Assembly (NCBI GenBank): GCA_018623405.1
Contig: JAAZVO010000001.1
Span: forward strand, 1 to 32,198
Length of the DNA stretch: 32,198 nt
From: Crocinitomicaceae bacterium
GTDB taxonomy: Bacteria > Bacteroidota > Bacteroidia > Flavobacteriales_G > Salibacteraceae
Direction of reading: 5' to 3'
Each line of letters starts with the position of its first letter. The stretch's first letter is position 1. Shown here piece after piece: positions 2,516 through 14,565 of the stretch. A model generated the notes under the pieces. It did not search any database. It was not told the DNA's origin and was given only the letters and a program-made list of their open reading frames with translations. Made by a program: the position numbers and the translations under genes.

Positions 2516-3145
2516 TTGGAAGAAGAATTAATTAAATACTTCCCGGATTTAAATCATCCGGACCTAAAAAAAGACATTTTAGAATACGCTATTGAAAAAG
2601 ATATTTTGGCAGGAGATACCTTAATGGATGTAGGAAGATACGTTAAGGCAATCCCTCTTTTGGTAAAAGGCAAACTAAAAATTTTTAGGGAAGATGAAGA
2701 AGGTAGGGAGCTATTTTTATATTACGTAAACCCTGGAGAAACCTGCGCAATTTCTTTAGTGTGCTCTGAAAGAGATAGAAAATCAAAGATTAAAGCAGTT
2801 GCCATTGAAGATACCACCTATTTAGCTGTTCCTGTTAGGTTTATGGATGAGTGGATGCAACAATATAAAAATTGGTACTACTTTGTTATGGAAACCTACC
2901 GTAAAAGGTTCGAAGAGGTTTTAAATACGGTAGATTCAGTTGCTTTTCATAAACTTGATGAAAGATTATTGGGATACATAAAAAAGAATACAGAGGCATT
3001 AGGAACGGATACCCTTAACACTACTCATCAAGAAATTGCCAATGAGTTAAGTACATCAAGAGAGGTCATTTCTAGACTATTAAAACAGCTAGAAAAAAAT
3101 GGTGTAGTTAAATTAGGAAGAAACAAAATTCAAATGTTAAGTTAG
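2516..3145 (+). CDS. Crp/Fnr-family transcriptional regulator (cNMP-binding-like beta-roll plus C-terminal HTH)
   Basis: 209 aa, with a TTG start 1 nt after the kbl stop. HTH THQEIANELSTSREVISRLLKQLEKNG. Lacks the N-terminal Cys cluster of FNR; its only two Cys form C77-x5-C83 in the beta-roll. Confidence 0.85.
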   Translation: MEEELIKYFPDLNHPDLKKDILEYAIEKDILAGDTLMDVGRYVKAIPLLVKGKLKIFREDEEGRELFLYYVNPGETCAISLVCSERDRKSKIKAVAIEDTTYLAVPVRFMDEWMQQYKNWYYFVMETYRKRFEEVLNTVDSVAFHKLDERLLGYIKKNTEALGTDTLNTTHQEIANELSTSREVISRLLKQLEKNGVVKLGRNKIQMLS

Positions 3146-3233: not shown

Positions 3234-3947
3234 TTGAAAAACAAAGCAGCCGAACCAACAAAAGATACTTTTAAGCACTTTTTTAATGGGGCATTTTCAG
3301 TAGATATTGTCTTAATTGCCTATTTAGACGGTAGCCTGAAGTTTTTACTCCAAAAAAAGCAAGATTATCCCTTAGTTAACGAGTGGGGTTTACCAGGAGA
3401 CCTTATTTTACCTGAGCAAGACACCGATAAAGCAATAGACGAGTTATTGATTAAGAATATAGGCCATTCCGATGTTTTCAAATCAAACCTTAGGGCATTT
3501 TCAGAACTCAATAGGCATCCATTAGGTAGAATAATAACCATAGCTTTTTATGGTTTAATAAGTTTTGATAAGGTGCCCAACAAACTACCCGAAAACTTTA
3601 AATGGGCCAACCTTGAAGCAAATTATGAGCTAACCTTAGATCACAATCATATTTTAGAAGAGGCTAAAAAGAAGTTTAAAGAAAACCTTATTCAAAAGCC
3701 TGTGGTGTTTAATCTTTTACCGGAGAAATTTATCATTTCAGATTTAATTAAAATCTATGAGTTAGCTTTCGATAAAAAAGTAGATGTAGCCAACTTCAGA
3801 AAAAGGATAGTTTCAAGTAAAATGATTCGCTCTACTGGCGAGTTTAAACAGCGTTACAAAAGCCACGGAAGACCGGCAGAATACTATACTTACGAGGGGC
3901 CAACTAAAAAGAAGTCTGAAAAAGAAAGTATACTATTTAACTTTTAA
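3234..3947 (+). CDS. Nudix-fold protein with C-terminal winged-helix-like region (NrtR-like putative regulator; degenerate Nudix box)
   Basis: 237 aa. Nudix-like N-terminus (FSVDIVLIAY...WGLPGDLILPE) in which the REx2EE catalytic glutamates are replaced (DELLIKNIG). Basic C-terminal half. There is no in-frame ATG near the 5' end, so a TTG start is needed. Confidence 0.5.
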   Translation: MKNKAAEPTKDTFKHFFNGAFSVDIVLIAYLDGSLKFLLQKKQDYPLVNEWGLPGDLILPEQDTDKAIDELLIKNIGHSDVFKSNLRAFSELNRHPLGRIITIAFYGLISFDKVPNKLPENFKWANLEANYELTLDHNHILEEAKKKFKENLIQKPVVFNLLPEKFIISDLIKIYELAFDKKVDVANFRKRIVSSKMIRSTGEFKQRYKSHGRPAEYYTYEGPTKKKSEKESILFNF

Positions 3948-4060: not shown

Positions 4061-4076
4061 TGTGATTTACATCACT
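4061..4076. promoter_or_regulatory. CRP/FNR-type box TGTGA-TTTACA-TCACT upstream of tauE
   Basis: 9/10 match to TGTGA-N6-TCACA. Its centre lies 29.5 nt upstream of the TAATTTTG -7 box. Confidence 0.5.
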
Positions 4077-4097: not shown

Positions 4098-4105
4098 TAA
4101 TTTTG
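4098..4105 (+). promoter_or_regulatory. Candidate -7 promoter box for the tauE operon
   Basis: TAATTTTG matches TAnnTTTG, 14 nt upstream of the ATG at 4120. Confidence 0.5.
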
Positions 4106-4119
4106 ACCAAAATTTTTGA

Positions 4120-4920
4120 ATGCTCGAAATAATAGGTTACGTATCGGCAATAGTTATCGGAATTTCTCTAGGATTAATAGGTGGAGGAGGTTCCATTTTA
4201 ACTGTTCCAATTTTGGTGTACCTAATGGGTGTGGAGGCCGGTGAGTATGCTCCGGCTTATTCATTATTTATTGTAGGCTCGACAGCTTTAATTGGTGGTA
4301 TTCAAAAATATAGAGAGGGCTTTGTTGATATCAAAACCTTTGTTGTTTTTGGTATTCCCGCAATAATTACTGTTTATTTTACTAGACACAACCTTGTGCC
4401 GGCTATTCCTGACGAAATGCTTTTGGGTGATTTTGTGCTTACCAAAAGGCTATTAATCATGGCAATTTTTGCAGTGCTTATGGTATTAGCTTCTGTTTCT
4501 ATGATTAGAGGAAGAAAAGAACCCGAAAACGATGGTGAAGAAGAGCAAAAATTCAATTATCCGTTAATTTTAGTAGAAGGCGTAGTGGTAGGCGTATTAA
4601 CAGGATTGGTTGGTGCGGGAGGAGGCTTTTTAATTATTCCGGCCTTGGTAAAACTTAGCAAATTGAGTATGAAAAAGGCTGTAGGTACTTCATTATTAAT
4701 TATTGCGGCCAAATCACTTTTTGGATTTGTAGGAGATGTAACTCGTTTAGATATAGATTGGGCCATGTTATTCATTATTACTGTTTTAGCAATAGTTGGA
4801 ATTTTTGTGGGTAATGTTATGTCAAGAAAAATTCCGGGCCAAAAACTAAAAGTTGGCTTCGGGTGGTTTGTGCTAATAATGGGTGTTTACATATTAGGAA
4901 GAGAACTATTTTTTCAATAA
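4120..4920 (+). CDS. TauE/SafE (TSUP, DUF81) family sulfite/organosulfonate exporter
   Basis: 266 aa polytopic membrane protein with two internal repeats, each opening with a Gly-rich motif (GGGGSILTVP and GAGGGFLIIPAL). Confidence 0.88.
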   Translation: MLEIIGYVSAIVIGISLGLIGGGGSILTVPILVYLMGVEAGEYAPAYSLFIVGSTALIGGIQKYREGFVDIKTFVVFGIPAIITVYFTRHNLVPAIPDEMLLGDFVLTKRLLIMAIFAVLMVLASVSMIRGRKEPENDGEEEQKFNYPLILVEGVVVGVLTGLVGAGGGFLIIPALVKLSKLSMKKAVGTSLLIIAAKSLFGFVGDVTRLDIDWAMLFIITVLAIVGIFVGNVMSRKIPGQKLKVGFGWFVLIMGVYILGRELFFQ

Positions 4921-4947
4921 TAAAATCAATAACTAAAACCAAAATTT

Positions 4948-6357
4948 ATGAAAGTAGAACAATTGTACACAGGTTGCTTAGCAGAAGCAGCTTATTACAT
5001 TGAATCAAATGGCGAAGCAGCCATTATTGATCCATTAAGAGAAACGGCTCCTTACATGAAAAAGCTGGAAGAACGTGGCACTAAATTGAAATATATTTTA
5101 GAAACTCACTTCCATGCCGATTTTGTTTCAGGTCATATAGATTTAGCCAAAAAAACCGGAGCTACTATTGTTTACGGACCTAACGCCGTTGCAGAATATG
5201 ATATTTATGTAGCAAAAGACGATGAAGAACTAAAAGTAGGTGATGTAACAATTAAAGTGCTTCACACACCCGGCCATACCATGGAGTCTTCTTGCTTTTT
5301 ATTGGTAGATGAAAATGGAAAAGATCACGGAATATTTACCGGTGATACCGTATTTATTGGTGACGTTGGCCGCCCTGATCTTGCAGTAAAAACCGATCTT
5401 TCTAGAGAAGATTTAGCACGCCATTTATATGATTCTATCCAAAATAAAATTATGCCATTGGCAGATGATGTAATCATTTACCCTGGTCATGGTAAAGGTT
5501 CGGCTTGTGGCAAAAACATGAGTGATGAAACTACCGATACTTTAGGTAATCAAAAGGAGAAAAACTATGCGTTACAACCAATGGAAAAAGAAGAGTTTGT
5601 AGCCAAGGTGATTGATGGCTTAACTCCTCCACCTCAATATTTTACTAAAAATGCCTTAATGAATAAAAAAGGATACGAAAGCTTCGATAAAGTTATTGCT
5701 CAAGGTTTAACTGCCTTAGATGCTGATACTTTTGAAGATGTAGCAAACGCAGAATGTGCTTTAATTTTAGATACCAGATTACCTGAAGAGTTTGTGGCAG
5801 GTTTTATTCCAAATTCAATTTTTGTAGGTATTGAAGGTTCTTTTGCTTCTTGGGTTGGTACTTTAATCGTAGATTTAAATCAACCAATATTATTCATTGC
5901 CGATGAAGGTAAAGAGGAAGAAGTAGTTACTAGATTATCTAGAGTTGGTTATGACAACACTATTGGATTCTTAAAAGGAGGAATAGAAGCTTGGAAAGCT
6001 GCAGGTAAAGAGCTAGACAAGGTAAATAGTGTTACACCACACGATTTTGCTGCAAAAATTGAAAATGGAGAAATCCTTAATGTAGTTGATGTAAGAAGGT
6101 ATAGCGAGTATAATCAAGGCCATCTTGAAAATGCTGAAAACATTCCGCTAGACTATGTTAATGATAACATGACTAATTTTAACAGAAATACAGAGTACTA
6201 CATGCATTGTGCAGGTGGCTACAGGTCTGTAGTAATGGCTTCTATATTAAAAGCAAGAGGATTTGATAAAGTGGTAAATATTGAAGAGGGTTTTAACGCA
6301 CTTCAAGAAAAAACCAACTTACCTATTGTTTCAGATATTTTAGAGCCAGAAGCATAA
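4948..6357 (+). CDS. Persulfide dioxygenase (MBL fold) fused to a pseudo-rhodanese and a catalytic rhodanese domain (CstB-like)
   Basis: 469 aa. MBL motif THFHADFVSGH plus HTPGHT. The middle rhodanese-like domain lacks the active-site Cys (FIADEGKEEE). The C-terminal rhodanese has the loop HCAGGYRS. Confidence 0.88.
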   Translation: MKVEQLYTGCLAEAAYYIESNGEAAIIDPLRETAPYMKKLEERGTKLKYILETHFHADFVSGHIDLAKKTGATIVYGPNAVAEYDIYVAKDDEELKVGDVTIKVLHTPGHTMESSCFLLVDENGKDHGIFTGDTVFIGDVGRPDLAVKTDLSREDLARHLYDSIQNKIMPLADDVIIYPGHGKGSACGKNMSDETTDTLGNQKEKNYALQPMEKEEFVAKVIDGLTPPPQYFTKNALMNKKGYESFDKVIAQGLTALDADTFEDVANAECALILDTRLPEEFVAGFIPNSIFVGIEGSFASWVGTLIVDLNQPILFIADEGKEEEVVTRLSRVGYDNTIGFLKGGIEAWKAAGKELDKVNSVTPHDFAAKIENGEILNVVDVRRYSEYNQGHLENAENIPLDYVNDNMTNFNRNTEYYMHCAGGYRSVVMASILKARGFDKVVNIEEGFNALQEKTNLPIVSDILEPEA

Positions 6358-6380
6358 GTTCTTAAACATATCTTGATAGT

Positions 6381-6411
6381 ATTAGCGCATTAGATTTTCT
6401 TTCGCGCTAAT
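6381..6411 (+). terminator. Hairpin ATTAGCGC-N15-GCGCTAAT after the dioxygenase gene (weak terminator or attenuator candidate)
   Basis: An 8-bp perfect stem 24 nt after the stop, with only a short T run after it. Confidence 0.25.
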
Positions 6412-6445
6412 GCTGTCTTTAACAACTAATACCAAACTAAAAACC

Positions 6446-7282
6446 ATGAAAGTATTAATACCAGTAAATTTCTCCGAGCTTTCAGACTATACCATGGGGA
6501 TTGCCTCAAAAATGTCAAAACAAATTGATGTTGAGGTACATGCTATTAATGTTATTGATGCTCCTGATGATAGCATGCTAGGCAGCGATGGTAGAACTAT
6601 TTCTGCAGGTTGTATGGCAGAAGAGGTTACCCCGGTTACCGAAGAACTAAAAAAACAACTACAAGAGTGGACCAATAAATACAAATTAAAAACCCTACCC
6701 GTAGTAATGTCTGGTGATAGAATTAGCAAGATTATTAACTACATAGAAGGAGCAGGAATAGACCTTGTTTTGGTTGGTACCCATGGCTCAAAAGGGTTTA
6801 AAGAGTTTTTAGAAGGTTCTCAGGCAGAAAAGCTAGTAAGATTATCACCCGCACCGGTAATAAGCATAAAAAGTTTTGATGAAACCTTAAACCTTAAGCA
6901 AATTCTTTTGGCTAGTGAGCTAGTAAAGCATGAACATAGTCATTTAGAGGCACTAAAAGAGTTGCAGGCTGCCTTTGATGCTCATATTTGGTTAGCCAAA
7001 ATAAATACTCCTAAAAACTTTGATACTACTCGTCATATCAAAAGAAAAATGACTGAATATATCGAAGAACATAACCTTCAAAACGTTACTCCAATTGTTT
7101 ACAATGCAGCAAATATTGAAGAAGGGATTAGAGATTTTGTTGAAGATTACAATATAGATTTGGTAGCTATTGGAGATCATGGATATACAGGAATTAAGTA
7201 TATCTTCCATAAAAGTGTATCAAAAGATGTTGTAAACCATATAGACCACCCAGTATTAACCTTTAAAATCGATCCATCATGA
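6446..7282 (+). CDS. Tandem-domain universal stress protein (UspA family)
   Basis: MKVLIPVNFSE opens a typical Usp. Two Usp repeats (..VGTHGSKGF.. and ..IGDHGYTGI..). I prefer the ATG at 6446 over the tracked start at 6410. Confidence 0.85.
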   Translation: MKVLIPVNFSELSDYTMGIASKMSKQIDVEVHAINVIDAPDDSMLGSDGRTISAGCMAEEVTPVTEELKKQLQEWTNKYKLKTLPVVMSGDRISKIINYIEGAGIDLVLVGTHGSKGFKEFLEGSQAEKLVRLSPAPVISIKSFDETLNLKQILLASELVKHEHSHLEALKELQAAFDAHIWLAKINTPKNFDTTRHIKRKMTEYIEEHNLQNVTPIVYNAANIEEGIRDFVEDYNIDLVAIGDHGYTGIKYIFHKSVSKDVVNHIDHPVLTFKIDPS

Positions 7283-7860
7283 CAGAATTTATCAATAGCG
7301 TAATTTATGAGCCGTGGCCATGGTACTTAGTTGGTCCTGCCATTGCCATAACATTGTTTTTACTGCTTTACTTTGGTAGAGAGTTTGGCGTTTCTGCCTC
7401 TTTAAGGGCAACTTGTGCAGCCATAGGCGGCGGAAAAATTTCATCTTTTTTCGATTTTGATTGGAAATCGCAGAAATGGAATTTCGTGTTTGTTTTTGGA
7501 ACAGTTGTAGGAGGAACAGTTTCTTCTCTATTTATGAACTCAAAAGGAGCCGTAGATATTGCTGAAAGCACTAAAGAAGCTCTAATTGGCATGGGGATGA
7601 CAAATCCAGGTTCAGATTATTTGCCTACCCAACTATTTACCTATGAAAATTTGGGTATCGGCACTATACTCTTTTTACTTATTGGAGGGGTATTGGTTGG
7701 CTTTGGTGCTAGGTATGCAGGTGGCTGTACCAGTGGACATGCCATAAGTGGCTTAAGCAATCTTCAATTACCATCATTAATTGCCGTAATTGGTTTTTTT
7801 ATTGGTGGTTTAACCATGACTTATTTTTTATTACCGGTAATTTTTAGTTGGGTACTTTAA
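7279..7860 (+). CDS. YeeE/YedE family (DUF395) sulfur-compound transporter, first half
   Basis: 193 aa membrane protein with the conserved Cys motif GGCTSGHAISG. Its start overlaps the usp stop (ATGA). Confidence 0.85.
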   Translation: MTEFINSVIYEPWPWYLVGPAIAITLFLLLYFGREFGVSASLRATCAAIGGGKISSFFDFDWKSQKWNFVFVFGTVVGGTVSSLFMNSKGAVDIAESTKEALIGMGMTNPGSDYLPTQLFTYENLGIGTILFLLIGGVLVGFGARYAGGCTSGHAISGLSNLQLPSLIAVIGFFIGGLTMTYFLLPVIFSWVL

Positions 7861-9275
7861 TGAAGAAGAGCTTAATATTATTATTTATTCTTTCTACATT
7901 TTTTGGGTTTACTCAAGAAGATGAAGTTCCGCCTATGGAACCACACCACCATGAGCATAGCCTTACAGAAGACCCCTACCATGAGCATCCTAAATGCGAA
8001 AAATTAATGGATGTTTTTAAATCAGGTTATATGGCAGGTAGAGTAAGGTATTATTTTATGAATACTAACCATACTCAACATGGGGAGAACTATTATGCCA
8101 ATGCAATAGGTGGGGCCTTAGCCTACCATACAGCGGTTTATTATGGTTTCAGTGCAGGTTTAAGCGGAATTTTTGTTTACAACATTGGCTCAAGCCATTT
8201 CCATGATACTTTGCTTTCTGTGAATGAGCTAGAGCTTTTTGATGTTACTCACCCGGAAAACAGAAACGACTTAGACCGTTTAGAGGAGCTATACATTGCG
8301 TATGAGTGGAAAAAGAATAAAATTAAATATGGAAAGCAAGATGTTTCTACTCCATTGGTAAACATGCAAGATACTAGAATGAAGCCCTATGTTTTTAAAG
8401 GCATTTGGGGAAATTTTTGGATAACCGAAAGCACCACTTTTAATGCAGGTTGGTTTACTGAGGCTTCACCACGCTCTACAACGCATTGGTATCCAATTGC
8501 AGAAGCTATTGGCTTGTATGGCGAAGGGCAAAGCACTACAGGTCTTCCATCCGATTATCAAGGGTTTTTATCTTCTAAAGGGATGGGGATTTTTGGTTTA
8601 GAAGATCATAGAAGAAATCTGAATTCTCAAGCATGGTTTTATCATATAAATAATATACTAAACACCTACTATTTGCAATTCGATTACCAAATTCCATTGC
8701 AACACTATGCCTTAATTACAGGTATCCAAGGAGTTTACCAGCAACCGCACAATAAGGGTGGCAGTCCTGATGGAACTCACGTTTATTATGACCCTACCCA
8801 AACAACCACATTGGTTTCAGGTAGGTTGGGATTTAAAACTCCTCATCAAACCTATACGGTTAATGCAACTACTATTTCTAACTCAGGTAGGTTTATTTTT
8901 CCAAGAGAGTTTGGAAGAGAGCAATTTTACACCACCTTACCTAGAGGAAGAATTGAAGGTTTAGGCGGTGCATCGCAACTTGTACTAAAAGCAGAAACAG
9001 AAAAGCTTTTTGATGAGAAGTTTAATGGTTTTATTGCTTTTGGTAGAACATTTACTCCGGGTAGAACCAACTTTGAGTTAAACAAATACGCCACCGCAGA
9101 TTATGATCATTTTGCAGCTAACCTTCTTTTTAAACCAAGAATGGAAGAGGAAGAGGGGCTTACCATTAGGCTGTTATATGTGTTATTTTCTGCCTACCAT
9201 TTACCCAAAAATCCATCTCCGGATTTTCACAAACAATACCATCAAATTAACCTTATTGCCAACATCAAATTTTAA
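7860..9275 (+). CDS. Putative outer-membrane beta-barrel porin (OprD-like) with a His-rich N-terminal segment
   Basis: Signal peptide MKKSLILLFILSTFFGFTQ. Alternating aromatic/polar strand patterns and a C-terminal ...LIANIKF (terminal Phe). RVRYYFMNTN resembles OprD-family strands. The ATG at 7860 overlaps the yeeE stop (TAATG). Confidence 0.6.
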   Translation: MKKSLILLFILSTFFGFTQEDEVPPMEPHHHEHSLTEDPYHEHPKCEKLMDVFKSGYMAGRVRYYFMNTNHTQHGENYYANAIGGALAYHTAVYYGFSAGLSGIFVYNIGSSHFHDTLLSVNELELFDVTHPENRNDLDRLEELYIAYEWKKNKIKYGKQDVSTPLVNMQDTRMKPYVFKGIWGNFWITESTTFNAGWFTEASPRSTTHWYPIAEAIGLYGEGQSTTGLPSDYQGFLSSKGMGIFGLEDHRRNLNSQAWFYHINNILNTYYLQFDYQIPLQHYALITGIQGVYQQPHNKGGSPDGTHVYYDPTQTTTLVSGRLGFKTPHQTYTVNATTISNSGRFIFPREFGREQFYTTLPRGRIEGLGGASQLVLKAETEKLFDEKFNGFIAFGRTFTPGRTNFELNKYATADYDHFAANLLFKPRMEEEEGLTIRLLYVLFSAYHLPKNPSPDFHKQYHQINLIANIKF

Positions 9276-9279
9276 CATT

Positions 9280-9693
9280 ATGAAACTTTTTAAATTCTTT
9301 TTAGTCGGTATATTTTTCGGAATTGCACTCTCTAAAGGAGAGGTAGTATCTTGGTTTCGTATCTACGAAATGTTCCGTTTCGATGCATTTCACATGTACG
9401 GAATAATAGGCTCTGCAGTTGTATTAGGAGCATTAATAACATGGTTTATAAAACGAACTTCAATGAAGAGCGTGGAAGGCAGCTTAATAAAGTTTACGCC
9501 AAAAAAGTTTAGTATTCCTCGTTATTTGGTTGGAGGAACTTTTTTTGGACTAGGTTGGGCCATGGTTGGAGCTTGCCCTGGCCCTATGTATATTTTAGTA
9601 GGTAAAGGCTTTTTCACCATTTTCATTGTAATTATTGGAGCTATTATTGGCACCATGATTTACGGAGTGCTAAGACCCAAATTACCTCATTAA
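9280..9693 (+). CDS. YeeE/YedE family (DUF395) sulfur-compound transporter, second half
   Basis: 137 aa starting MKLFKFFLVGIFFGIALSKGE, with conserved GACPGP. The tracked start at 9103 overlaps the porin gene and is rejected. Confidence 0.85.
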   Translation: MKLFKFFLVGIFFGIALSKGEVVSWFRIYEMFRFDAFHMYGIIGSAVVLGALITWFIKRTSMKSVEGSLIKFTPKKFSIPRYLVGGTFFGLGWAMVGACPGPMYILVGKGFFTIFIVIIGAIIGTMIYGVLRPKLPH

Positions 9694-10377
9694 AGAGAGC
9701 TTTGCTAAATAATCATTAGCGTTCCCCTCTTTTACCTTAGAAGCATGCAAGCCTAAAGCGCTTGCTGTTTCTTTTAAGGTTTCAAAATCAATAAACAACC
9801 ACTCAAAGGGCTGATCGAAGTTGTTTTGGTAACTCACCTGATATTCTATTTCTCCGTAATAAGGAATTTCTTGTTTAGAAGGTAGTTCATCATACAAATA
9901 GTCTATATCTGCGGAGTCTAGATAGATAACTCCATCTGGCGCTAAAAAAGTTTTTAGCAAGCTAATAAAATTAGTTAGACTATCAATATTTTCAGCTATG
10001 CCTATGCCATTCATAAGCAAGTAAATAGTGTTGTATTGCTGTTGAGGATTATAGCTCCAAACCGATTTACAAATAACATTCTCTACTCCTCTTTCTTTCA
10101 TTATTGAACAAAACACTTCAGATTGTTCTATCGCATCAACATCAAAGCCCTCTTCTTGCAGTATAAGGGCATGGCAGCCAACACCTGCTCCTATGTCAAG
10201 AATTTTTCCTTTAGCTTTTGCTAATGCGGTTTGCTCAAGTAAAGGCATTTCACTTTTTGGCCTGTAGAAGTAAGAGGCATGATAGGTTACTTCATCACCT
10301 AAGTTAGATTTTACGCTAAAGGCTACCTCATTTTTCGTGAGCCAATATTCCGAAATCGCATTTTCAAAACAATTCAT
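9682..10377 (-). CDS. Class I SAM-dependent methyltransferase
   Basis: 231 aa with SAM motif I ILDIGAGVGCHAL and acidic motif II. Its 3' end converges on and overlaps yedE by 12 nt. Confidence 0.85.
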   Translation of the reverse strand: MNCFENAISEYWLTKNEVAFSVKSNLGDEVTYHASYFYRPKSEMPLLEQTALAKAKGKILDIGAGVGCHALILQEEGFDVDAIEQSEVFCSIMKERGVENVICKSVWSYNPQQQYNTIYLLMNGIGIAENIDSLTNFISLLKTFLAPDGVIYLDSADIDYLYDELPSKQEIPYYGEIEYQVSYQNNFDQPFEWLFIDFETLKETASALGLHASKVKEGNANDYLAKLSLMR

Positions 10378-10398
10378 GGGTCAAAGGTGATGAAAAAG

Positions 10399-10418
10399 AT
10401 GATTTATATCATAAATCA
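10399..10418. promoter_or_regulatory. Nested palindromes in the methyltransferase/sqr divergent region: ATGAT-TTAT-ATCAT (FNR-like TGA-N6-TCA core) and TGATTTAT-ATC-ATAAATCA
   Basis: Read directly. The 8-3-8 palindrome is perfect. Confidence 0.35.
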
Positions 10419-10436
10419 CTGTTTTTTACGCTATTA

Positions 10437-10452
10437 GGTGACCAAAATCACA
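10437..10452. promoter_or_regulatory. CRP/FNR-type box GGTGA-CCAAAA-TCACA upstream of sqr
   Basis: 9/10 match to TGTGA-N6-TCACA. Its centre lies 28.5 nt upstream of the TAACTTTG -7 box, the same architecture as at tauE. Confidence 0.5.
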
Positions 10453-10472
10453 ATTATACGCTAGATGTGAAA

Positions 10473-10480
10473 TAACTTTG
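10473..10480 (+). promoter_or_regulatory. Candidate -7 promoter box for the sqr-cydAB operon
   Basis: TAACTTTG matches TAnnTTTG, 25 nt upstream of the ATG at 10506. Confidence 0.5.
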
Positions 10481-10505
10481 AACCTTAAACCAAAACCAAT
10501 TTATT

Positions 10506-11783
10506 ATGGCAGAGAAACATCACCAAATAGTAATTATTGGAGCAGGAACAGGCGGAATTACTGTAGCTGCACAATTGTTGAGAAAAAACAAATCTTTAGA
10601 TGTAGTAATTGTTGACCCATCAGACAAGCATTATTACCAACCCGCTTGGACATTAGTAGGCGCAGGAACTTTTGATTATAAAGATACCGTAAGAGATCAA
10701 GCATCTGTTATTCCTCCCGGTGCAAAGTGGATACAAGAGTATGCAGAAGAAGTAGATCCGGAAAACAACGCTGTTAAATTAAGAAACGGAGATACGTTAA
10801 CATATGATTTTTTAGTGGCTTCGCCAGGAATCCAAATTGATTTAGATGGAATTGAAGGCCTAAAAGAAGCAATGGGTAAAAATGATGTTTGCTCCAATTA
10901 CGTTGATCCTGACTATACATGGGAAGTACTACAAAACTTTAAAGGCGGAAACGCTTTGTTTACTCAGCCTGCAACACCTATTAAGTGCGGAGGCGCCCCT
11001 CAAAAAATTATGTATTTAGCAGATGACCATTTTGCTAAATCAGGAATAAAAGATAAAACCAACGTAATTTTTGCAACTCCCGGTACTTCAATATTTGGTG
11101 TGCCAGAATTTGCTAGAACCTTAATGAATGCGATTAACAGAAAAGGAATCATCTTAAAGTTCTATCATAAATTAGTGAAAATTGATGGTGAAAATAAAAA
11201 GGCAATTTATGAGCTAACAGCAACAGATGAAAGTAATTGTATCATTACTGTTAATGATGACAATAACGTTATTCACGAAGAAATTGTAGGTACAACCAGG
11301 CTTACCATTCCTTATGATATGATGCATTTGGCTCCACCACAATCTGCCCCCGATTTTATTAAGACTTCTAAAATCTCTCATCAAGAGGGAGGTAGTAAAG
11401 GTTGGGTAAAAGTTGACCAAAACAGTTTGCAAAACCCAGATTACCCTAATGTATTTGCCCTTGGCGATGTTGCAGCTTTACCTACGGCAAAAACAGGAGC
11501 AGCAGTAAGAAAACAGGCTCCGGTAGTGGTAGATAATTTGCTAAAATTAATTGCCCATAAAGAGGCAAACAACAAAGGCTACACTGGCTATTCTTCTTGC
11601 CCATTAGTAACCGGTTACGGCAAAATGGTACTAGCAGAGTTTGGTTATGGCAACAAAAGAATGAGCGATCCTATCCTCTCTAAACTTGTGGATACCACAA
11701 AAGAGCAATGGAGTATGTGGATACTTAAAAAATACGGATTGCCTTACATGTATTGGAATTTAATGCTTAGAGGTAAGGCCTAA
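10506..11783 (+). CDS. sqr: Sulfide:quinone oxidoreductase, type II (SQRDL-like flavoprotein)
   Basis: 425 aa. FAD fold IVIIGAGTGGITVA, HYYQPAWTLVGAG, redox Cys contexts KCGGAPQK and SSCPLVTGYGK, and GDVAALPT. Confidence 0.85.
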   Translation: MAEKHHQIVIIGAGTGGITVAAQLLRKNKSLDVVIVDPSDKHYYQPAWTLVGAGTFDYKDTVRDQASVIPPGAKWIQEYAEEVDPENNAVKLRNGDTLTYDFLVASPGIQIDLDGIEGLKEAMGKNDVCSNYVDPDYTWEVLQNFKGGNALFTQPATPIKCGGAPQKIMYLADDHFAKSGIKDKTNVIFATPGTSIFGVPEFARTLMNAINRKGIILKFYHKLVKIDGENKKAIYELTATDESNCIITVNDDNNVIHEEIVGTTRLTIPYDMMHLAPPQSAPDFIKTSKISHQEGGSKGWVKVDQNSLQNPDYPNVFALGDVAALPTAKTGAAVRKQAPVVVDNLLKLIAHKEANNKGYTGYSSCPLVTGYGKMVLAEFGYGNKRMSDPILSKLVDTTKEQWSMWILKKYGLPYMYWNLMLRGKA

Positions 11784-11788
11784 AGCCA

Positions 11789-11980
11789 ATGGAGAAAGTA
11801 AAACAAACCTTTATATTATTTGCGGTTGTAACGGTACTTTACTTTCTGTTAAAAGTAATACCTCATCCACCTTTTTTGGATGAGCATACTTACAGGAAAA
11901 GCATTAAAGCGTTTTTAGGGCTCCTACTTTCGGTAGGAGCCTTATTTATTTATCAACCTCCCAAAAACAAATCGGTTTAA
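11789..11980 (+). CDS. Small two-TM membrane protein preceding cydA (possibly the DUF4492-type protein often found next to Bacteroidota cydAB)
   Basis: 63 aa with two hydrophobic helices. It starts 5 nt after sqr, and its stop overlaps the cydA start (TAATG). The family assignment is from memory and was not verified. Confidence 0.55.
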   Translation: MEKVKQTFILFAVVTVLYFLLKVIPHPPFLDEHTYRKSIKAFLGLLLSVGALFIYQPPKNKSV

Positions 11981-13371
11981 TGGAATATACAGTAGAGTTT
12001 TTATCCAGATTACAATTTGCTGCCACTGCAATGTTCCACTACATTTTCCCTCCATTTAGTATTGGCTTAGGGCTAATCTTGGTAATTTTCGAATCGTACT
12101 ATTTTATTACCAAAGACAAGGTGTATGAAAATATAACCCGTTTTTGGATAAAAATATTTGCAGCTAATTTTTCGGTAGGAGTTGCCTCAGGCATTGTGTT
12201 AGAGTTTGAATTTGGTACCAATTGGGCTACTTACTCTCGCTTTGTTGGAGATGTTTTTGGTTCGCCTTTGGCTGCCGAAGGAATATTTGCTTTCTTTTTG
12301 GAGTCAGGCTTTTTAGCCATTTTATTGTTTGGGTGGAATAAGGTAAAACCGTGGGTGCATCTCTTTGCCACTTTCATGGTTTTTATCGGTTCAATGATGT
12401 CTGGTTTTTGGATAGTTGCAGCAAACTCATGGCAACAAACCCCTGTAGCCTATGAGGTAATTACCGATGCTTCAGGCATCACCAAAGCCGTTATCACAGA
12501 TTTTTGGGAGATGGTTTTTAACCCATCAACACCTTCAAGGTTTTCACACACTATTATAGGAGCCTTTTTACAAGGTTCGTTTCTAGTATTAAGTATATCA
12601 GCATATTACCTCTACAAAAAAATACACTTAGAGTTTGCTACCCGTTCATTCACTATTGCTTTAGGAGTGGCGTTTGTTTCAGCTTTGGCGCAACCACTAT
12701 TAGGCCATGAAAGCGCCAAGGTAGCGTATGAATACCAACCGGCAAAAATGGCTGCTTTCGAAGGTTTGTATGAAACAAAAGACAATGCGCCACTTTACCT
12801 TTTTGGTTGGGTAGATGAAGAAGCGGAGCAAACAAAAGGTATAGCAATTCCCGGCATGCTGAGTTACTTATTAAACTGGGATAACGACTTTGTAGTTAAG
12901 GGGTTAAATGAATTTCCTGAGGAAGAAAGACCACCTGTAAATGCAGTTTTTCAATCGTATCATTTAATGGTAGCCATTGGTATGGGATTAATTCTTATTA
13001 CATTTCTAGGATTGTTATTGCTCTACAAGAAAACCGTATTCAGAAAAAAATGGATTTTATGGATTTTTATGCTGTCGGTTTTCCTGCCGGTTTTTGCAAA
13101 CCAAGCAGGGTGGATTTCTGCAGAAAGAGGCAGGCAGCCTTATACTGTGTATGGATTACTAAAAACCTCTGAAAGCTACTCTAAGTCTTTGGTTGAGAGC
13201 GAGGTATTAACAAGTCTTATTCTCTTCTTTTTAATTTATGGTTTGCTGTTTTTTACTTGGTTATTTGTTTTGAATAAAGAAATTCAGCATGGCCCTGAAA
13301 CCTTAAACCCTGAAGATAATTTGTATAGGCAAAGAAAACTAAGAATTAACCTCTTAAAATTCTTAAAGTAA
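11980..13371 (+). CDS. cydA: Cytochrome bd ubiquinol oxidase subunit I
   Basis: 463 aa. RLQFAATAMFHYIFPPFSIGL, GWISAERGRQPYTVYGLL, short Q-loop type. Confidence 0.95.
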   Translation: MEYTVEFLSRLQFAATAMFHYIFPPFSIGLGLILVIFESYYFITKDKVYENITRFWIKIFAANFSVGVASGIVLEFEFGTNWATYSRFVGDVFGSPLAAEGIFAFFLESGFLAILLFGWNKVKPWVHLFATFMVFIGSMMSGFWIVAANSWQQTPVAYEVITDASGITKAVITDFWEMVFNPSTPSRFSHTIIGAFLQGSFLVLSISAYYLYKKIHLEFATRSFTIALGVAFVSALAQPLLGHESAKVAYEYQPAKMAAFEGLYETKDNAPLYLFGWVDEEAEQTKGIAIPGMLSYLLNWDNDFVVKGLNEFPEEERPPVNAVFQSYHLMVAIGMGLILITFLGLLLLYKKTVFRKKWILWIFMLSVFLPVFANQAGWISAERGRQPYTVYGLLKTSESYSKSLVESEVLTSLILFFLIYGLLFFTWLFVLNKEIQHGPETLNPEDNLYRQRKLRINLLKFLK

Positions 13372-14444
13372 TGGACTACAATGTTGTTTGGTTTTTAATT
13401 GTGGGGTTTTTATTGGTAGGTTATGCCATTCTAGATGGATTTGATTTAGGTGTTGGTGCGTGGCATTTTCTCGGAAAAACCGACCATGAAAGAAGAATAT
13501 TAATGAACTCGATTGGTCCCGTTTGGGATGGAAACGAAGTTTGGCTTGTTACCGCCGGTGGTGCTTTGTTTGCTGCATTTCCGGATGTGTATGCAACCGC
13601 ATTTTCAGGTTTTTATTTACCATTCATGTTTTTGCTATTTGCTTTAATTTTTAGGGCGGTTAGCATTGAGTTTAGGAGTAAAGAAGAAAGTAAAACTTGG
13701 CGAAACTTTTGGGATTGGTGCTTTTCACTAGGTTCTATTGTTGCTGCACTATTGTTTGGTATAGCAATAGGAAATGTAATTGTTGGATTCGAAATTGGAT
13801 CTGATAAAGAATACCAAGGTGCCTTTCTAGATTTAGTTTCACCCTACACAGTGCTCACAGGAATATTTAATGTTATTATGTTTATGATGCATGGCGCCAT
13901 TTACTTAACTTTAAAAACCGAGGGGGACCTTCAAAAACGAGCAAAAAAATGGGCATCAAAAACCTATTTTGTTTTTCTGATTTTATATGCTTTTGTTACT
14001 GCTTTTACCATTTTCATTAGACCTGAAATGTTAGCCAACTTCTCTTTTGGGATGATGGAGCCTTCTACCAATCACCCTTTAATAATAAACCACCAAATAT
14101 TTATTTCTGTAGTTGCTTGGAGTATAGTGTTGTTAAATGCCTTAGCCATACTAAACATCTTAAGGGCATTAACTAAAAACAAGTTTTTGCAAGCCTTTGT
14201 TTCATCAGCATTAATGATGGCGGCAATAATTCTATTTTTTGCTTTAGGTTTATTTCCTAATATGATGGTTTCAACCTTATCACCTGATTTTAGCTTGGAT
14301 ATTTATAATTCCTCCTCATCAGATTATACCTTAAAAACCATGTTTGTTTTAGCCTTAATAGGGATGCCCTTTGTAATTGCTTACACCACAATTATTTACT
14401 GGAGTTATAGGGGGGTTACTAAAATTGATGAGCAGAGTTACTAA
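13371..14444 (+). CDS. cydB: Cytochrome bd ubiquinol oxidase subunit II
   Basis: 357 aa. AILDGFDLGVG and GPVWDGNEVWLVTAGGALFAAFP. TAATG overlap with cydA. Confidence 0.93.
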   Translation: MDYNVVWFLIVGFLLVGYAILDGFDLGVGAWHFLGKTDHERRILMNSIGPVWDGNEVWLVTAGGALFAAFPDVYATAFSGFYLPFMFLLFALIFRAVSIEFRSKEESKTWRNFWDWCFSLGSIVAALLFGIAIGNVIVGFEIGSDKEYQGAFLDLVSPYTVLTGIFNVIMFMMHGAIYLTLKTEGDLQKRAKKWASKTYFVFLILYAFVTAFTIFIRPEMLANFSFGMMEPSTNHPLIINHQIFISVVAWSIVLLNALAILNILRALTKNKFLQAFVSSALMMAAIILFFALGLFPNMMVSTLSPDFSLDIYNSSSSDYTLKTMFVLALIGMPFVIAYTTIIYWSYRGVTKIDEQSY

Positions 14445-14506: not shown

Positions 14507-14514
14507 TACATTTG
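14507..14514 (+). promoter_or_regulatory. Candidate -7 promoter box for rplM-rpsI
   Basis: TACATTTG matches TAnnTTTG, with TTG triplets 17-20 nt upstream. Confidence 0.4.
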
Positions 14515-14565
14515 CAGCCCCAAAATTTTGGGAAATTTGTTTGTTCATCACTAATTTATAGATAA

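What the first reader, a model, noticed from the sequence alone, without database searches (positions are those of the whole stretch)
10437..10480. Second CRP-type box with the same box-to-promoter spacing in front of sqr-cydAB, defining a putative two-operon regulon
GGTGA-CCAAAA-TCACA (10437-10452) is also a 9/10 match. It lies 28.5 nt, centre to T of TA, upstream of TAACTTTG (10473-10480). This is within 1 bp of the geometry seen at tauE (29.5 nt).

Two independent promoters with the same operator-promoter architecture, both driving sulfur-oxidation genes, is much stronger evidence than either site alone. It links the two halves of the island into one regulon.
Basis: partly seen in the sequence, partly recalled or inferred. 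Interest (0 to 1): 0.62.

Follow-up and report, generated by a model that had tools for sequence, protein, structure and literature searches.

The report
Crp-type operator before sqr-cydAB
The 16-base palindrome in front of the sulfide-oxidising gene sqr is a real, evolutionarily conserved binding site for a neighbouring Crp/Fnr-type regulator, placed where such regulators switch promoters on; the site is ordinary in kind, but the regulator belongs to a family not yet described for sulfide control.

Summary
GGTGACCAAAATCACA lies at 10437-10452 and TAACTTTG at 10473-10480, 28.5 nt from box centre to T.

- **Rank in this genome.** A weight matrix built only from sites in other genomes ranks this box second in the 2.7-Mb genome. 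The tauE box and a third box before a sorA-type sulfite dehydrogenase operon on another contig also fall in the top four.
- **Conservation.** In 31 unique sqr upstream regions from several Bacteroidota families, only the box and the -7 element are conserved. The modal spacing is 29.5 nt. With the sigma-A box at -12 to -5, that puts the box centre at -41.5, the class II CRP/FNR position. This window's sqr box sits at -40.5.
- **Regulator.** The regulator at 2516-3145 has a CRP-type R-E-x-x-x-R recognition helix. It lacks the FNR iron-sulfur cysteines and has a conserved C-x5-C in the former cAMP pocket.
- **Regulon.** Regulator plus tauE/persulfide dioxygenase is the conserved core. sqr-cydAB is an accessory member.

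No published description of a Crp/Fnr-type sulfide regulator was found. Activation, the signal and direct cysteine sensing remain inferences.

The parts
10437..10452 (.). Main operator: imperfect palindrome GGTGACCAAAATCACA, upstream of sqr
   Evidence: Sequence read. It is the second-best genome-wide hit (17.4 bits) of a weight matrix built from other genomes. Orthologous boxes are found in same-genus and same-family sqr upstream regions.
10473..10480 (+). Bacteroidota sigma-A -7 element TAACTTTG; its T lies 28.5 nt from the box centre
   Evidence: In a Flavobacterium TSS map the TAnnTTTG box occupies -12 to -5 (PMC9723704). A -7 element is conserved at 29.5 nt in the orthologues.
10485..10485 (+). 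Predicted transcription start (inferred), giving a 21-nt leader
   Evidence: Inferred from the -12 to -5 position of the -7 box. No RNA contig covers 10360-10502, and one begins at 10503. This is consistent but not precise.
10506..11783 (+). sqr, sulfide:quinone oxidoreductase (425 aa)
   Evidence: Pfam Pyr_redox_2. Best NCBIfam match is type III SQR, below the family cut-off. RNA contigs cover the gene.
11789..11980 (+). 63-aa hydrophobic small ORF between sqr and cydA; its stop overlaps the cydA start (TAATG)
   Evidence: Translation. One RNA contig spans 11398-11902, joining sqr to this ORF.
11980..14444 (+). cydA and cydB, cytochrome bd oxidase subunits I and II
   Evidence: Pfam Cyt_bd_oxida_I at 2e-161 and Cyt_bd_oxida_II at 3e-108. 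sqr-cydA adjacency recurs in several genera.
2516..3145 (+). Crp/Fnr-family regulator (209 aa), the presumed protein that binds the box
   Evidence: Pfam HTH_Crp_2, cNMP_binding and Crp. The recognition helix S-R-E-V-I-S-R is invariant in orthologues. CRP fold with TM about 0.8. C77 is conserved in 100% and C83 in 99% of 81 orthologues.
4061..4076 (.). Sister operator TGTGATTTACATCACT before the tauE operon
   Evidence: Weight-matrix score 13.9, fourth in the genome. In all 30 family PDO loci the top matrix hit (11.5-20.5 bits) lies upstream of tauE or PDO or beside them.
4098..4105 (+). -7 element TAATTTTG of the tauE promoter, 29.5 nt from its box centre
4120..9693 (+). tauE, PDO-rhodanese, usp, yeeE half, porin-like gene and yedE half: the other operon of the regulon in this window
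   Evidence: Pfam and NCBIfam results.
10398..10413 (.). Weak possible second site GATGATTTATATCATA, 39 nt centre-to-centre upstream of the main box
   Evidence: Weight-matrix score only 5.1. A similar weak site lies at the same 39-nt distance in same-genus genome G015. Its function is not established.

Best explanation
The palindrome at 10437-10452 is the operator through which the Crp/Fnr-family regulator encoded at 2516-3145 controls the sqr-orf63-cydAB operon.

The regulator most likely binds as a dimer, reading the GTGA / TCAC half-sites with a CRP-type R-E-x-x-x-R helix. The site is centred about 40.5 nt upstream of the predicted start; the norm for this regulon is 41.5. From that position the regulator most likely contacts RNA polymerase and activates transcription, as CRP and FNR do at class II promoters.

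The same regulator and box geometry serve the tauE-persulfide dioxygenase operon in this window and a sorAB-rhodanese operon on another contig. Together they form one regulon that oxidises sulfide to sulfite and sulfate and supplies a terminal oxidase that tolerates sulfide.

What is shown:
- the box and its spacing;
- their conservation across Bacteroidota;
- the linkage of the box to this regulator family;
- the match between recognition helix and half-site.

What is inferred:
- activation rather than repression;
- a reduced or reactive sulfur species as the signal;
- sensing through the conserved pocket cysteines.
For: - **Unbiased dyad test.** Of 3,328 palindromic dyads tested, GTGA-N6-TCAC is by far the most enriched upstream of sulfur genes: 32/101 regions against 7/625, p about 2e-23.
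- **Rank in this genome.** A weight matrix from other genomes ranks the sqr box second, the sorA box third and the tauE box fourth in the 2.7-Mb genome.
- **Footprint.** In 31 unique sqr upstream regions the mean information content is 1.11 bits per position in the box, 0.12 in the flanks and spacer, and 0.53 over the -7 element, with the TA peak 29.5 nt from the box centre.
- **Same genus.** Both same-genus genomes keep boxes at sqr and tauE, and G015 also at sorA, although the loci are rearranged.
- **Position.** The sigma-A box TAnnTTTG lies at -12 to -5 in a Flavobacterium TSS map (PMC9723704), so a 29.5-nt spacing gives -41.5.
- **Recognition helix.** R-E-x-x-x-R is invariant in orthologues. 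The only other Crp paralogue in the genome has K-E-S-V-I-R.
- **Autoregulation.** In many relatives the regulator gene carries its own box at the same spacing.
- **Co-occurrence.** Of the two high-quality family genomes that truly lack the regulator, one has no box at PDO and the other only a degenerate one.
- **Expression.** sqr, the small ORF and cydAB are transcribed in natural communities.
Against: - No binding, expression or start-site experiment exists for this organism. The RNA data are sparse assembled contigs and do not fix the start.
- This promoter's spacing is 28.5 nt, 1 nt short of the conserved 29.5.
- The argument that the box replaces a -33 element carries no weight here, because ordinary promoters of this genome show no -33 TTG enrichment.
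- Most comparison loci were retrieved through the regulator, and many come from a single genus (Algoriphagus), so the counts are not independent events.
- The closest regulator orthologue (75% identity, L001) has neither sulfur genes nor boxes within 10 kb.
- The second cysteine is not conserved in the wider family.
Confidence: 0.78

Rival explanations
1. The box is an operator for the same Crp/Fnr regulator, but the regulator represses. It would occupy the upstream promoter region until a sulfur signal releases it, as CstR, SqrR and BigR do.
For: All well-studied dedicated persulfide sensors except FisR are repressors (review PMC13467558). The box overlaps the region where RNA polymerase would contact upstream promoter DNA.
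Against: A repressor does not need single-nucleotide phasing. Here the spacing is 29.5 nt (sometimes 28.5 or 30.5) across several Bacteroidota families and many different genes. That is the hallmark of a protein-protein contact with polymerase at -41.5. Crp/Fnr proteins at -41.5 are typically activators (established knowledge).
Confidence: 0.13
2. The regulator is an FNR-like oxygen or redox sensor, not a sulfur sensor. The regulon would be a low-oxygen programme that happens to include sulfide-handling genes and the high-affinity bd oxidase.
For: cydAB is a classic low-oxygen target of FNR-type regulators (established knowledge). Some databases label homologues 'anaerobic regulatory protein'. 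Usp and peroxiredoxin genes appear in the regulon of relatives.
Against: The protein has only two cysteines and lacks the N-terminal FNR cluster motif. The box is CRP-type (GTGA), not the FNR type TTGAT-N4-ATCAA, and the helix is R-E-x-x-x-R. The conserved core targets are tauE, persulfide dioxygenase-rhodanese, sqr, yeeE, rhodanese and sorA, all sulfur enzymes or transporters. cydAB is only an occasional member.
Confidence: 0.15
3. The box is functional but is bound by another protein: the second Crp paralogue on contig C167, or the NrtR-like regulator at 3234-3947.
For: The genome encodes one other Crp/Fnr protein. An NrtR-like winged-helix protein sits between the regulator and tauE.
Against: The paralogue's helix is K-E-S-V-I-R, not R-E-x-x-x-R. 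No NrtR-like gene was detected in any of the 80 related loci that carry the boxes, nor in same-genus G016, where the regulator directly precedes the box and tauE. The box follows the window-type regulator across families and often precedes that regulator's own gene.
Confidence: 0.04
4. The match is a chance resemblance to the CRP consensus in AT-rich intergenic DNA and has no function.
For: A 9/10 match is expected 0.67 times per window, and 18% of shuffles give two or more. The exact core is not over-represented genome-wide: 14 observed against about 29 expected from base composition (for the count; the expectation is my own calculation).
Against: The box is conserved in position while the flanks are not. 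It is the top dyad in an unbiased test, ranks second genome-wide with a matrix from other genomes, and is phase-locked to the -7 element.
Confidence: 0.02

Closest known systems
E. coli CRP (CAP) at class II promoters such as galP1, with the site centred at -41.5
   Same: The site is a 16-bp palindrome of the TGTGA-N6-TCACA type. The recognition helix has the same R-E-x-x-x-R pattern. The predicted fold matches CAP and CAP-DNA structures with TM about 0.8. The site is centred at about -41.5 relative to the inferred start.
   Different: The cAMP-contacting Arg aligns to Lys89, a position not conserved in this family. Two cysteines sit in the former phosphate-binding cassette. The promoter is the Bacteroidota sigma-A type (-7 TAnnTTTG), not -10/-35. 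The regulon is sulfur oxidation, not carbon catabolism.
E. coli FNR and relatives (ANR, FnrP), regulators of terminal oxidases including cydAB
   Same: They belong to the same protein superfamily, use class II geometry at -41.5, and control cytochrome bd.
   Different: There is no N-terminal Cys cluster for a [4Fe-4S] centre; the protein has only C77 and C83. The half-site is GTGA rather than TTGAT. The helix is R-E-x-x-x-R rather than the FNR type E-x-x-S-R (FNR helix from established knowledge).
Dedicated persulfide/sulfide sensors: CstR (CsoR family), SqrR/BigR/YgaV (ArsR family) and FisR (sigma-54 activator)
   Same: The regulon content matches: sqr, persulfide dioxygenase-rhodanese (CstB-like), tauE, rhodaneses. 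There is a conserved cysteine pair in the orthologue group.
   Different: The protein fold family is different. A review of August 2026 lists only the CsoR, ArsR and Fis superfamilies (PMC13467558). The likely mode is activation at a sigma-A promoter, not derepression or sigma-54 activation. Reaction of the cysteines with sulfane sulfur has not been tested.
Staphylococcus aureus cst operon (cstR, tauE, cstA, cstB, sqr)
   Same: It has the same functional gene set for sulfide and sulfane-sulfur detoxification, including a TauE exporter and a PDO-rhodanese fusion.
   Different: It is controlled by the CsoR-type repressor CstR, has no cytochrome bd or sorAB in the set, and has a different operator.
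PDB 3dv8, an uncharacterised Crp/Fnr-family protein from Eubacterium rectale
   Same: It is the best sequence and structure match (E 1e-21; TM 0.86). It shares the aligned C-x5-C and the R-E-x-x-x-R helix.
   Different: Identity is only 28%. It comes from a Firmicute, and its function and targets are unknown.

Membership tests
Crp/Fnr-family transcription factor with its operator | The regulator has a cNMP-binding-like beta-roll domain plus a C-terminal Crp-type helix-turn-helix | tested here: met
   Pfam cNMP_binding (35.3 bits, cut-off 27.5), HTH_Crp_2 (41.7, cut-off 27) and Crp (30.4, cut-off 21). AlphaFold model with pLDDT 89.9 matches CRP structures at TM about 0.8.
Crp/Fnr-family transcription factor with its operator | Palindromic operator with 5-bp half-sites separated by 6 bp, matching the recognition helix | tested here: met
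   GGTGA-N6-TCACA at 10437-10452. The R-E-x-x-x-R helix is as in CRP and Vfr. The same dyad is the top enriched one upstream of regulon genes.
Class II CRP/FNR-dependent promoter | Site centred at about -41.5 relative to the transcription start | tested here: inconclusive
   The start is inferred from the -7 box position (-12 to -5; PMC9723704). This gives -40.5 here and -41.5 for the regulon norm. RNA contigs are consistent but imprecise.
Class II CRP/FNR-dependent promoter | Transcription depends on the activator and on its contact with RNA polymerase | not testable with these tools
   This needs a regulator deletion, reporter fusions or in-vitro transcription.
cAMP receptor protein (CRP proper) | cAMP-binding residues of the phosphate-binding cassette (Arg82 and Ser83 in E. 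coli) | tested here: not met
   The Arg aligns to Lys89, which is not conserved in the family. Only the Ser (S90) is invariant.
FNR (oxygen-sensing [4Fe-4S] regulators) | N-terminal cysteine cluster plus a central Cys that ligate the iron-sulfur cluster; TTGAT-N4-ATCAA box | tested here: not met
   The protein has only two cysteines, at 77 and 83. The box has GTGA half-sites.
Thiol-based persulfide sensors (CstR, SqrR/BigR type) | Membership of the CsoR or ArsR fold families | tested here: not met
   The fold and Pfam domains are Crp/Fnr.
Thiol-based persulfide sensors (CstR, SqrR/BigR type) | Two conserved cysteines that form a di- to tetrasulfide link when exposed to sulfane sulfur | tested here: inconclusive
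   C77 is conserved in 100% and C83 in 99% of 81 orthologues. In 144 diverse family representatives, the first Cys is kept in about 77% and the C-x5-C pair in about 47%. The chemistry was not tested, and the model coordinates could not be read to measure the distance.
Thiol-based persulfide sensors (CstR, SqrR/BigR type) | Regulon of sulfide and sulfane-sulfur oxidation genes | tested here: met
   Boxes precede sqr, tauE-PDO-rhodanese, yeeE, rhodanese and sorA genes.

The most novel reading that the evidence does not exclude
The box and its regulator define a fourth, undescribed class of bacterial sulfide or reactive-sulfur sensor, widespread in Bacteroidota. It would be a Crp/Fnr-fold protein that senses sulfane sulfur (or sulfide or sulfite) directly through cysteine(s) in the former cAMP pocket. 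Unlike the CsoR- and ArsR-type repressors, it would switch on sulfide oxidation together with a sulfide-tolerant bd oxidase as a class II activator at sigma-A promoters.
Probability: 0.4. Interest if true: 0.78.

Novelty: new variant of a known kind. Interest (0 to 1): 0.64.

Why it matters
Heterotrophic Bacteroidota are abundant in marine, estuarine and sediment habitats where sulfide appears and disappears, yet how they regulate sulfide detoxification is not described.

A conserved and easily recognised operator (GTGAY-N4-RTCAC, 22 nt before TAnnTTTG) allows the whole sulfide-response regulon to be read from a genome sequence in this phylum. It ties sulfide oxidation (sqr, persulfide dioxygenase, sulfite dehydrogenase) to respiration through cytochrome bd.

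It also points to a Crp/Fnr-type regulator as the sensor. If that regulator senses sulfur species directly, it adds a new protein fold and a new mode (activation at a housekeeping-sigma promoter) to the known persulfide sensors. This can be tested directly with one purified protein and one 16-bp site.

Tried and rejected
- **-33 argument.** I tested whether the box replaces a -33 TTG element. In this genome 448 candidate promoters show no -33 TTG enrichment, so the argument carries no weight.
- **Start-site mapping.** I tried to map the start from metatranscriptomes. Only low-depth assembled contigs exist. None covers 10360-10502 and one begins at 10503, which is consistent but imprecise. At the rplM control promoter, contigs begin 23-27 nt after the T of the -7 box, so contig ends underestimate the 5' end.
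- **Population-level selection test.** Four independent metagenomes are identical over 10250-10650, so there is no variation to use.
- **Cys77-Cys83 distance.** The model coordinates are not exposed to the Python box.
- **CooA haem ligands.** I could not align C77 to the haem ligands of CooA because PDB sequences cannot be fetched by ID. A haem-based sensor therefore remains untested.
- **Closest regulator orthologue.** L001 (75% identity) was expected to give the best footprint, but it has no sulfur genes or boxes within 10 kb.
- **Phyletic test.** Regulator-less genomes were mostly an artefact: four of nine "absent" regulators are fragments at contig ends. Only two high-quality genomes are informative.
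- **Literature.** Three literature searches and two reviews turned up no Crp/Fnr-type sulfide regulator. This is absence from the searchable library, not proof of absence.
- **Divergent promoter.** The box does not drive the divergent methyltransferase gene as a class II promoter. No -7 element lies 28.5-30.5 nt away on the minus strand.

Full report
**Observation**

The window is contig C119 of a 2.70-Mb, 35.5% GC marine Flavobacteriales-type assembly. At 10437-10452 the sequence reads GGTGACCAAAATCACA, a 9/10 match to TGTGA-N6-TCACA. TAACTTTG, a match to the Bacteroidota -7 consensus TAnnTTTG, lies at 10473-10480. The distance from box centre to the T is 28.5 nt. The tauE box (TGTGATTTACATCACT, 4061-4076) lies 29.5 nt from TAATTTTG at 4098-4105.

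These are the only two matches with at most one mismatch in the window. That count alone is weak evidence: 0.67 matches are expected, and 18 of 100 shuffles gave two or more. Two exact GTGA-N6-TCAC cores are rarer: 0.19 are expected, and 1 of 100 shuffles gave two or more. Four independent metagenomes hold 10250-10650 without a single difference, so the sequence is real.

**Surroundings**

- Upstream on the minus strand is a SAM-dependent methyltransferase gene (9682-10377).
- Downstream are sqr (10506-11783), a 63-aa hydrophobic ORF (11789-11980), cydA and cydB.
- Further upstream are a Crp/Fnr-family regulator (2516-3145), an NrtR-like protein, and the string tauE, persulfide dioxygenase-rhodanese, usp, split yeeE/yedE and a porin-like gene.
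- Metatranscriptome contigs show low-level transcription of sqr, the small ORF and cydAB. One contig joins sqr to the small ORF. Separate contigs start at 14530-14534 for rplM, so the operon ends at cydB.

**Is the box more than chance in this genome?**

The genome has 14 exact cores, and 9 of them lie outside ORFs of 100 aa or more. Four have an exact TAnnTTTG 28.5-30.5 nt downstream, where about 0.04 would be expected. Three more have a one-mismatch version.

A weight matrix built only from sites in other genomes gives these top hits in this genome:

| Rank | Site | Score (bits) | Context |
|---|---|---|---|
| 1 | C242:40 | 17.5 | contig edge, target unknown |
| 2 | sqr box (10437) | 17.4 | this finding |
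| 3 | C58:16 | 16.6 | before sorA-like operon |
| 4 | tauE box (4061) | 13.9 | sister operator |

C58 encodes a SorA-type molybdoenzyme with a TAT signal, a small CxxCH protein and a rhodanese. Its box lies 29.5 nt from TAATTTCG. So at least three operons for sulfide, persulfide and sulfite oxidation share the architecture.

**Comparative evidence**

- *Regulator neighbourhood.* The regulator has orthologues at 46-75% identity across Flavobacteriales, Cyclobacteriaceae, Chitinophagaceae and others. In most of those loci it sits beside tauE, PDO, sqr, yeeE or cydAB genes.
- *Box frequency.* A box with at most two mismatches lies upstream of TauE in 36/41 cases, SQR in 12/15, PDO in 19/34 and the regulator gene itself in 30/62. 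The figure for other genes is 64/663. The spacing to TAnnTTTG is 29.5 nt in most cases and 30.5 in some.
- *Unbiased test.* Because that collection was seeded with the CRP consensus, I tested all 3,328 palindromic 4-mer dyads with gaps of 0-12. GTGA-N6-TCAC is the top one by a wide margin: 32/101 against 7/625, p about 2e-23.
- *Other box-bearing genes.* Several of the "other" genes with a canonically spaced box are themselves sulfur-related: single-domain rhodaneses, a SulP permease and a 1-Cys peroxiredoxin.
- *Loci retrieved through SQR.* In the window's own family, 21 of 58 genomes have an sqr orthologue. All but one of the upstream regions I could read carry a box, 50-66 nt or in some about 118 nt before the ATG. 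This includes both same-genus genomes: GGTGATGTTAATCACA and GGTGATAATTGTCACA, each 29.5 nt from a TAAnTTAG element.
- *Footprint.* Anchored on the box, 31 unique sqr upstream regions show 1.11 bits per position in the box, 0.12 in the flanks and spacer, and 0.53 over the -7 element, with peaks at TA and TT 29.5 nt from the centre.
- *Same-genus whole-genome scans.* G015 has only six sites. They lie before sqr, before tauE-PDO, about 0.9 kb upstream of sorA, at the orthologue of the C242 site, at the orthologue of the C305 site, and at one unassigned place. sorA itself has a variant box (AGTGATAATTGTTACA) immediately upstream. G016 has three sites, two of them before sqr and tauE-PDO. This holds although sqr and the regulator are about 29 kb apart and on opposite strands in G015.

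**Which protein binds?**

The regulator's helix S-R-E-V-I-S-R has the R-E-x-x-x-R pattern that aligns to the DNA-reading residues of Vfr/CRP. It is invariant in the orthologues. The genome has only one other true Crp/Fnr protein, and its helix is K-E-S-V-I-R. No NrtR-like gene was detected in the related loci that carry boxes.

The regulator is present in 49 of 58 family genomes and as contig-end fragments in four more. Of the two high-quality genomes that truly lack it, one has no box at PDO and the other only a degenerate one. PDO-rhodanese is present in 57/58 genomes, and in all 30 PDO loci examined the top matrix hit (11.5-20.5 bits) lies upstream of tauE or PDO or beside them. The core of the regulon is therefore regulator plus tauE/PDO. 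sqr, with or without cydAB, is an accessory member.

**Mechanism**

A genome-wide start-site map of Flavobacterium psychrophilum places the sigma-A TAnnTTTG box at -12 to -5 (PMC9723704). A 29.5-nt spacing therefore centres the box at -41.5, the class II position of CRP and FNR. The sqr box of this window is at -40.5, with a predicted start near 10485.

The single-nucleotide constancy of this spacing, across families and across unrelated target genes, is the main argument for activation through a contact with RNA polymerase rather than repression. That conclusion is an inference. The supporting idea that the box replaces a -33 element could not be used, because this genome's ordinary promoters show no -33 TTG signal.

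**Signal**

The regulator lacks the FNR cluster cysteines and the conserved cAMP-binding arginine. Its only cysteines, C77 and C83, lie in the former phosphate-binding cassette. C77 is at the N-cap of a short helix (residues 78-85) and C83 inside it, in a confident model.

They are conserved in 100% and 99% of 81 orthologues. The closest solved structure, the uncharacterised 3dv8, has the same aligned C-x5-C. In 144 diverse family representatives the first Cys is kept in about 77%, but the pair in only about 47%. Direct thiol sensing of sulfane sulfur is therefore plausible but unproven. A haem- or metal-based sensor and an indirect signal remain open.

**Comparison with what is known**

The site works like a class II CRP/FNR operator. 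The regulon resembles the staphylococcal cst system and the SqrR, BigR and FisR regulons in content. A review of August 2026 lists dedicated reactive-sulfur sensors only in the CsoR, ArsR and Fis superfamilies (PMC13467558). My searches found no Crp/Fnr-type sulfide regulator, and public databases give the family only generic names.

Earlier agents of this scan reported what looks like the same regulator-and-box system in several other Bacteroidota genomes. I treat those as leads. Their geometry, a 14-base palindrome 22 bases before the promoter box, equals the 29.5 nt measured here.

**Verdict**

The operator itself is an ordinary kind of element. The interest lies in the regulator family and regulon it reveals, which appear undescribed and can be tested directly.

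Noticed in passing
genome contig C58:16-31 and C58:87-3229 (outside the window): A third box, GGTGATTTTAATCACA, lies 29.5 nt from TAATTTCG. It precedes a SorA-type sulfite dehydrogenase (TAT signal), a small CxxCH protein and a rhodanese fused to a fatty-acid-hydroxylase-like membrane domain. In same-genus G015, sorA has its own variant box with the same TAATTTCG.
   Followed up: yes
genome contig C242:40-55 (outside the window): This is the best matrix hit in the genome (TGTGACTTTAATCACT, 17.5 bits). It lies 40 nt from a contig end, so its target is unknown. In G015 the orthologous site lies about 125 nt upstream of a YceI-like gene followed by an outer-membrane-like gene, without an obvious -7 element at the canonical spacing.
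   Followed up: partly
genome contig C305:14070-14085 (outside the window); L139 in G015: A box followed by CAAyTTTG at 28.5 nt lies between aroA and a small zinc-ribbon membrane protein. It is conserved in two species of the genus and may be an additional regulon member of unknown function.
   Followed up: partly
genome contig C151:2290-3956 (outside the window): A second PDO-rhodanese paralogue (59% identity) has no box. It is directly preceded by an ArsR-type helix-turn-helix gene. The genome may therefore run two separate sulfur-responsive circuits, one Crp-type and one ArsR-type.
   Followed up: partly
window 10398-10413: A weak palindrome, GATGATTTATATCATA (matrix score 5.1), lies 39 nt centre-to-centre upstream of the main box. 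G015 has a similar weak site (AATGATTTTCATCACT) at the same 39-nt distance. It could be a secondary low-affinity site.
   Followed up: partly
window 14507-14534: The rplM promoter has TACATTTG at 14507-14514. RNA contigs from three metatranscriptomes begin at 14530-14534, so the ribosomal protein operon is transcribed separately from cydB. This also shows that contig 5' ends fall 11-15 nt short of the expected start.
   Followed up: partly
window 9682-10390, minus strand: The methyltransferase gene divergent from sqr keeps this arrangement in all three genomes of the genus. A near-consensus -7 element (CACCTTTG, reverse complement of 10383-10390) ends 5 nt before its ATG, which would give a leaderless mRNA. 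A thiol or sulfide methyltransferase role is conceivable but untested.
   Followed up: no
L144 (G015), about 900 nt upstream of sorA: A perfect box, TGTGATTTTAATCACA, with TAATTTTG at 29.5 nt points into about 880 nt without any ORF of 70 aa or more. This may be a small RNA, a small peptide or a decayed gene under the same control.
   Followed up: no
L082 / G015:C153:1266-2471: The sqr orthologue of same-genus G015 (80% identity) is reported with two in-frame TAA stops. It may be a pseudogene or carry assembly errors, yet its box and -7 element are intact.
   Followed up: no
L001 (Flavobacteriales MAG JABAYK010000019.1): The closest regulator orthologue (75% identity) shares the glutamate dehydrogenase-aminotransferase-regulator synteny. 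It has no sulfur genes or boxes within 10 kb, so the stretch from the NrtR-like gene to cydAB in this window looks like an insertion relative to that genome.
   Followed up: partly
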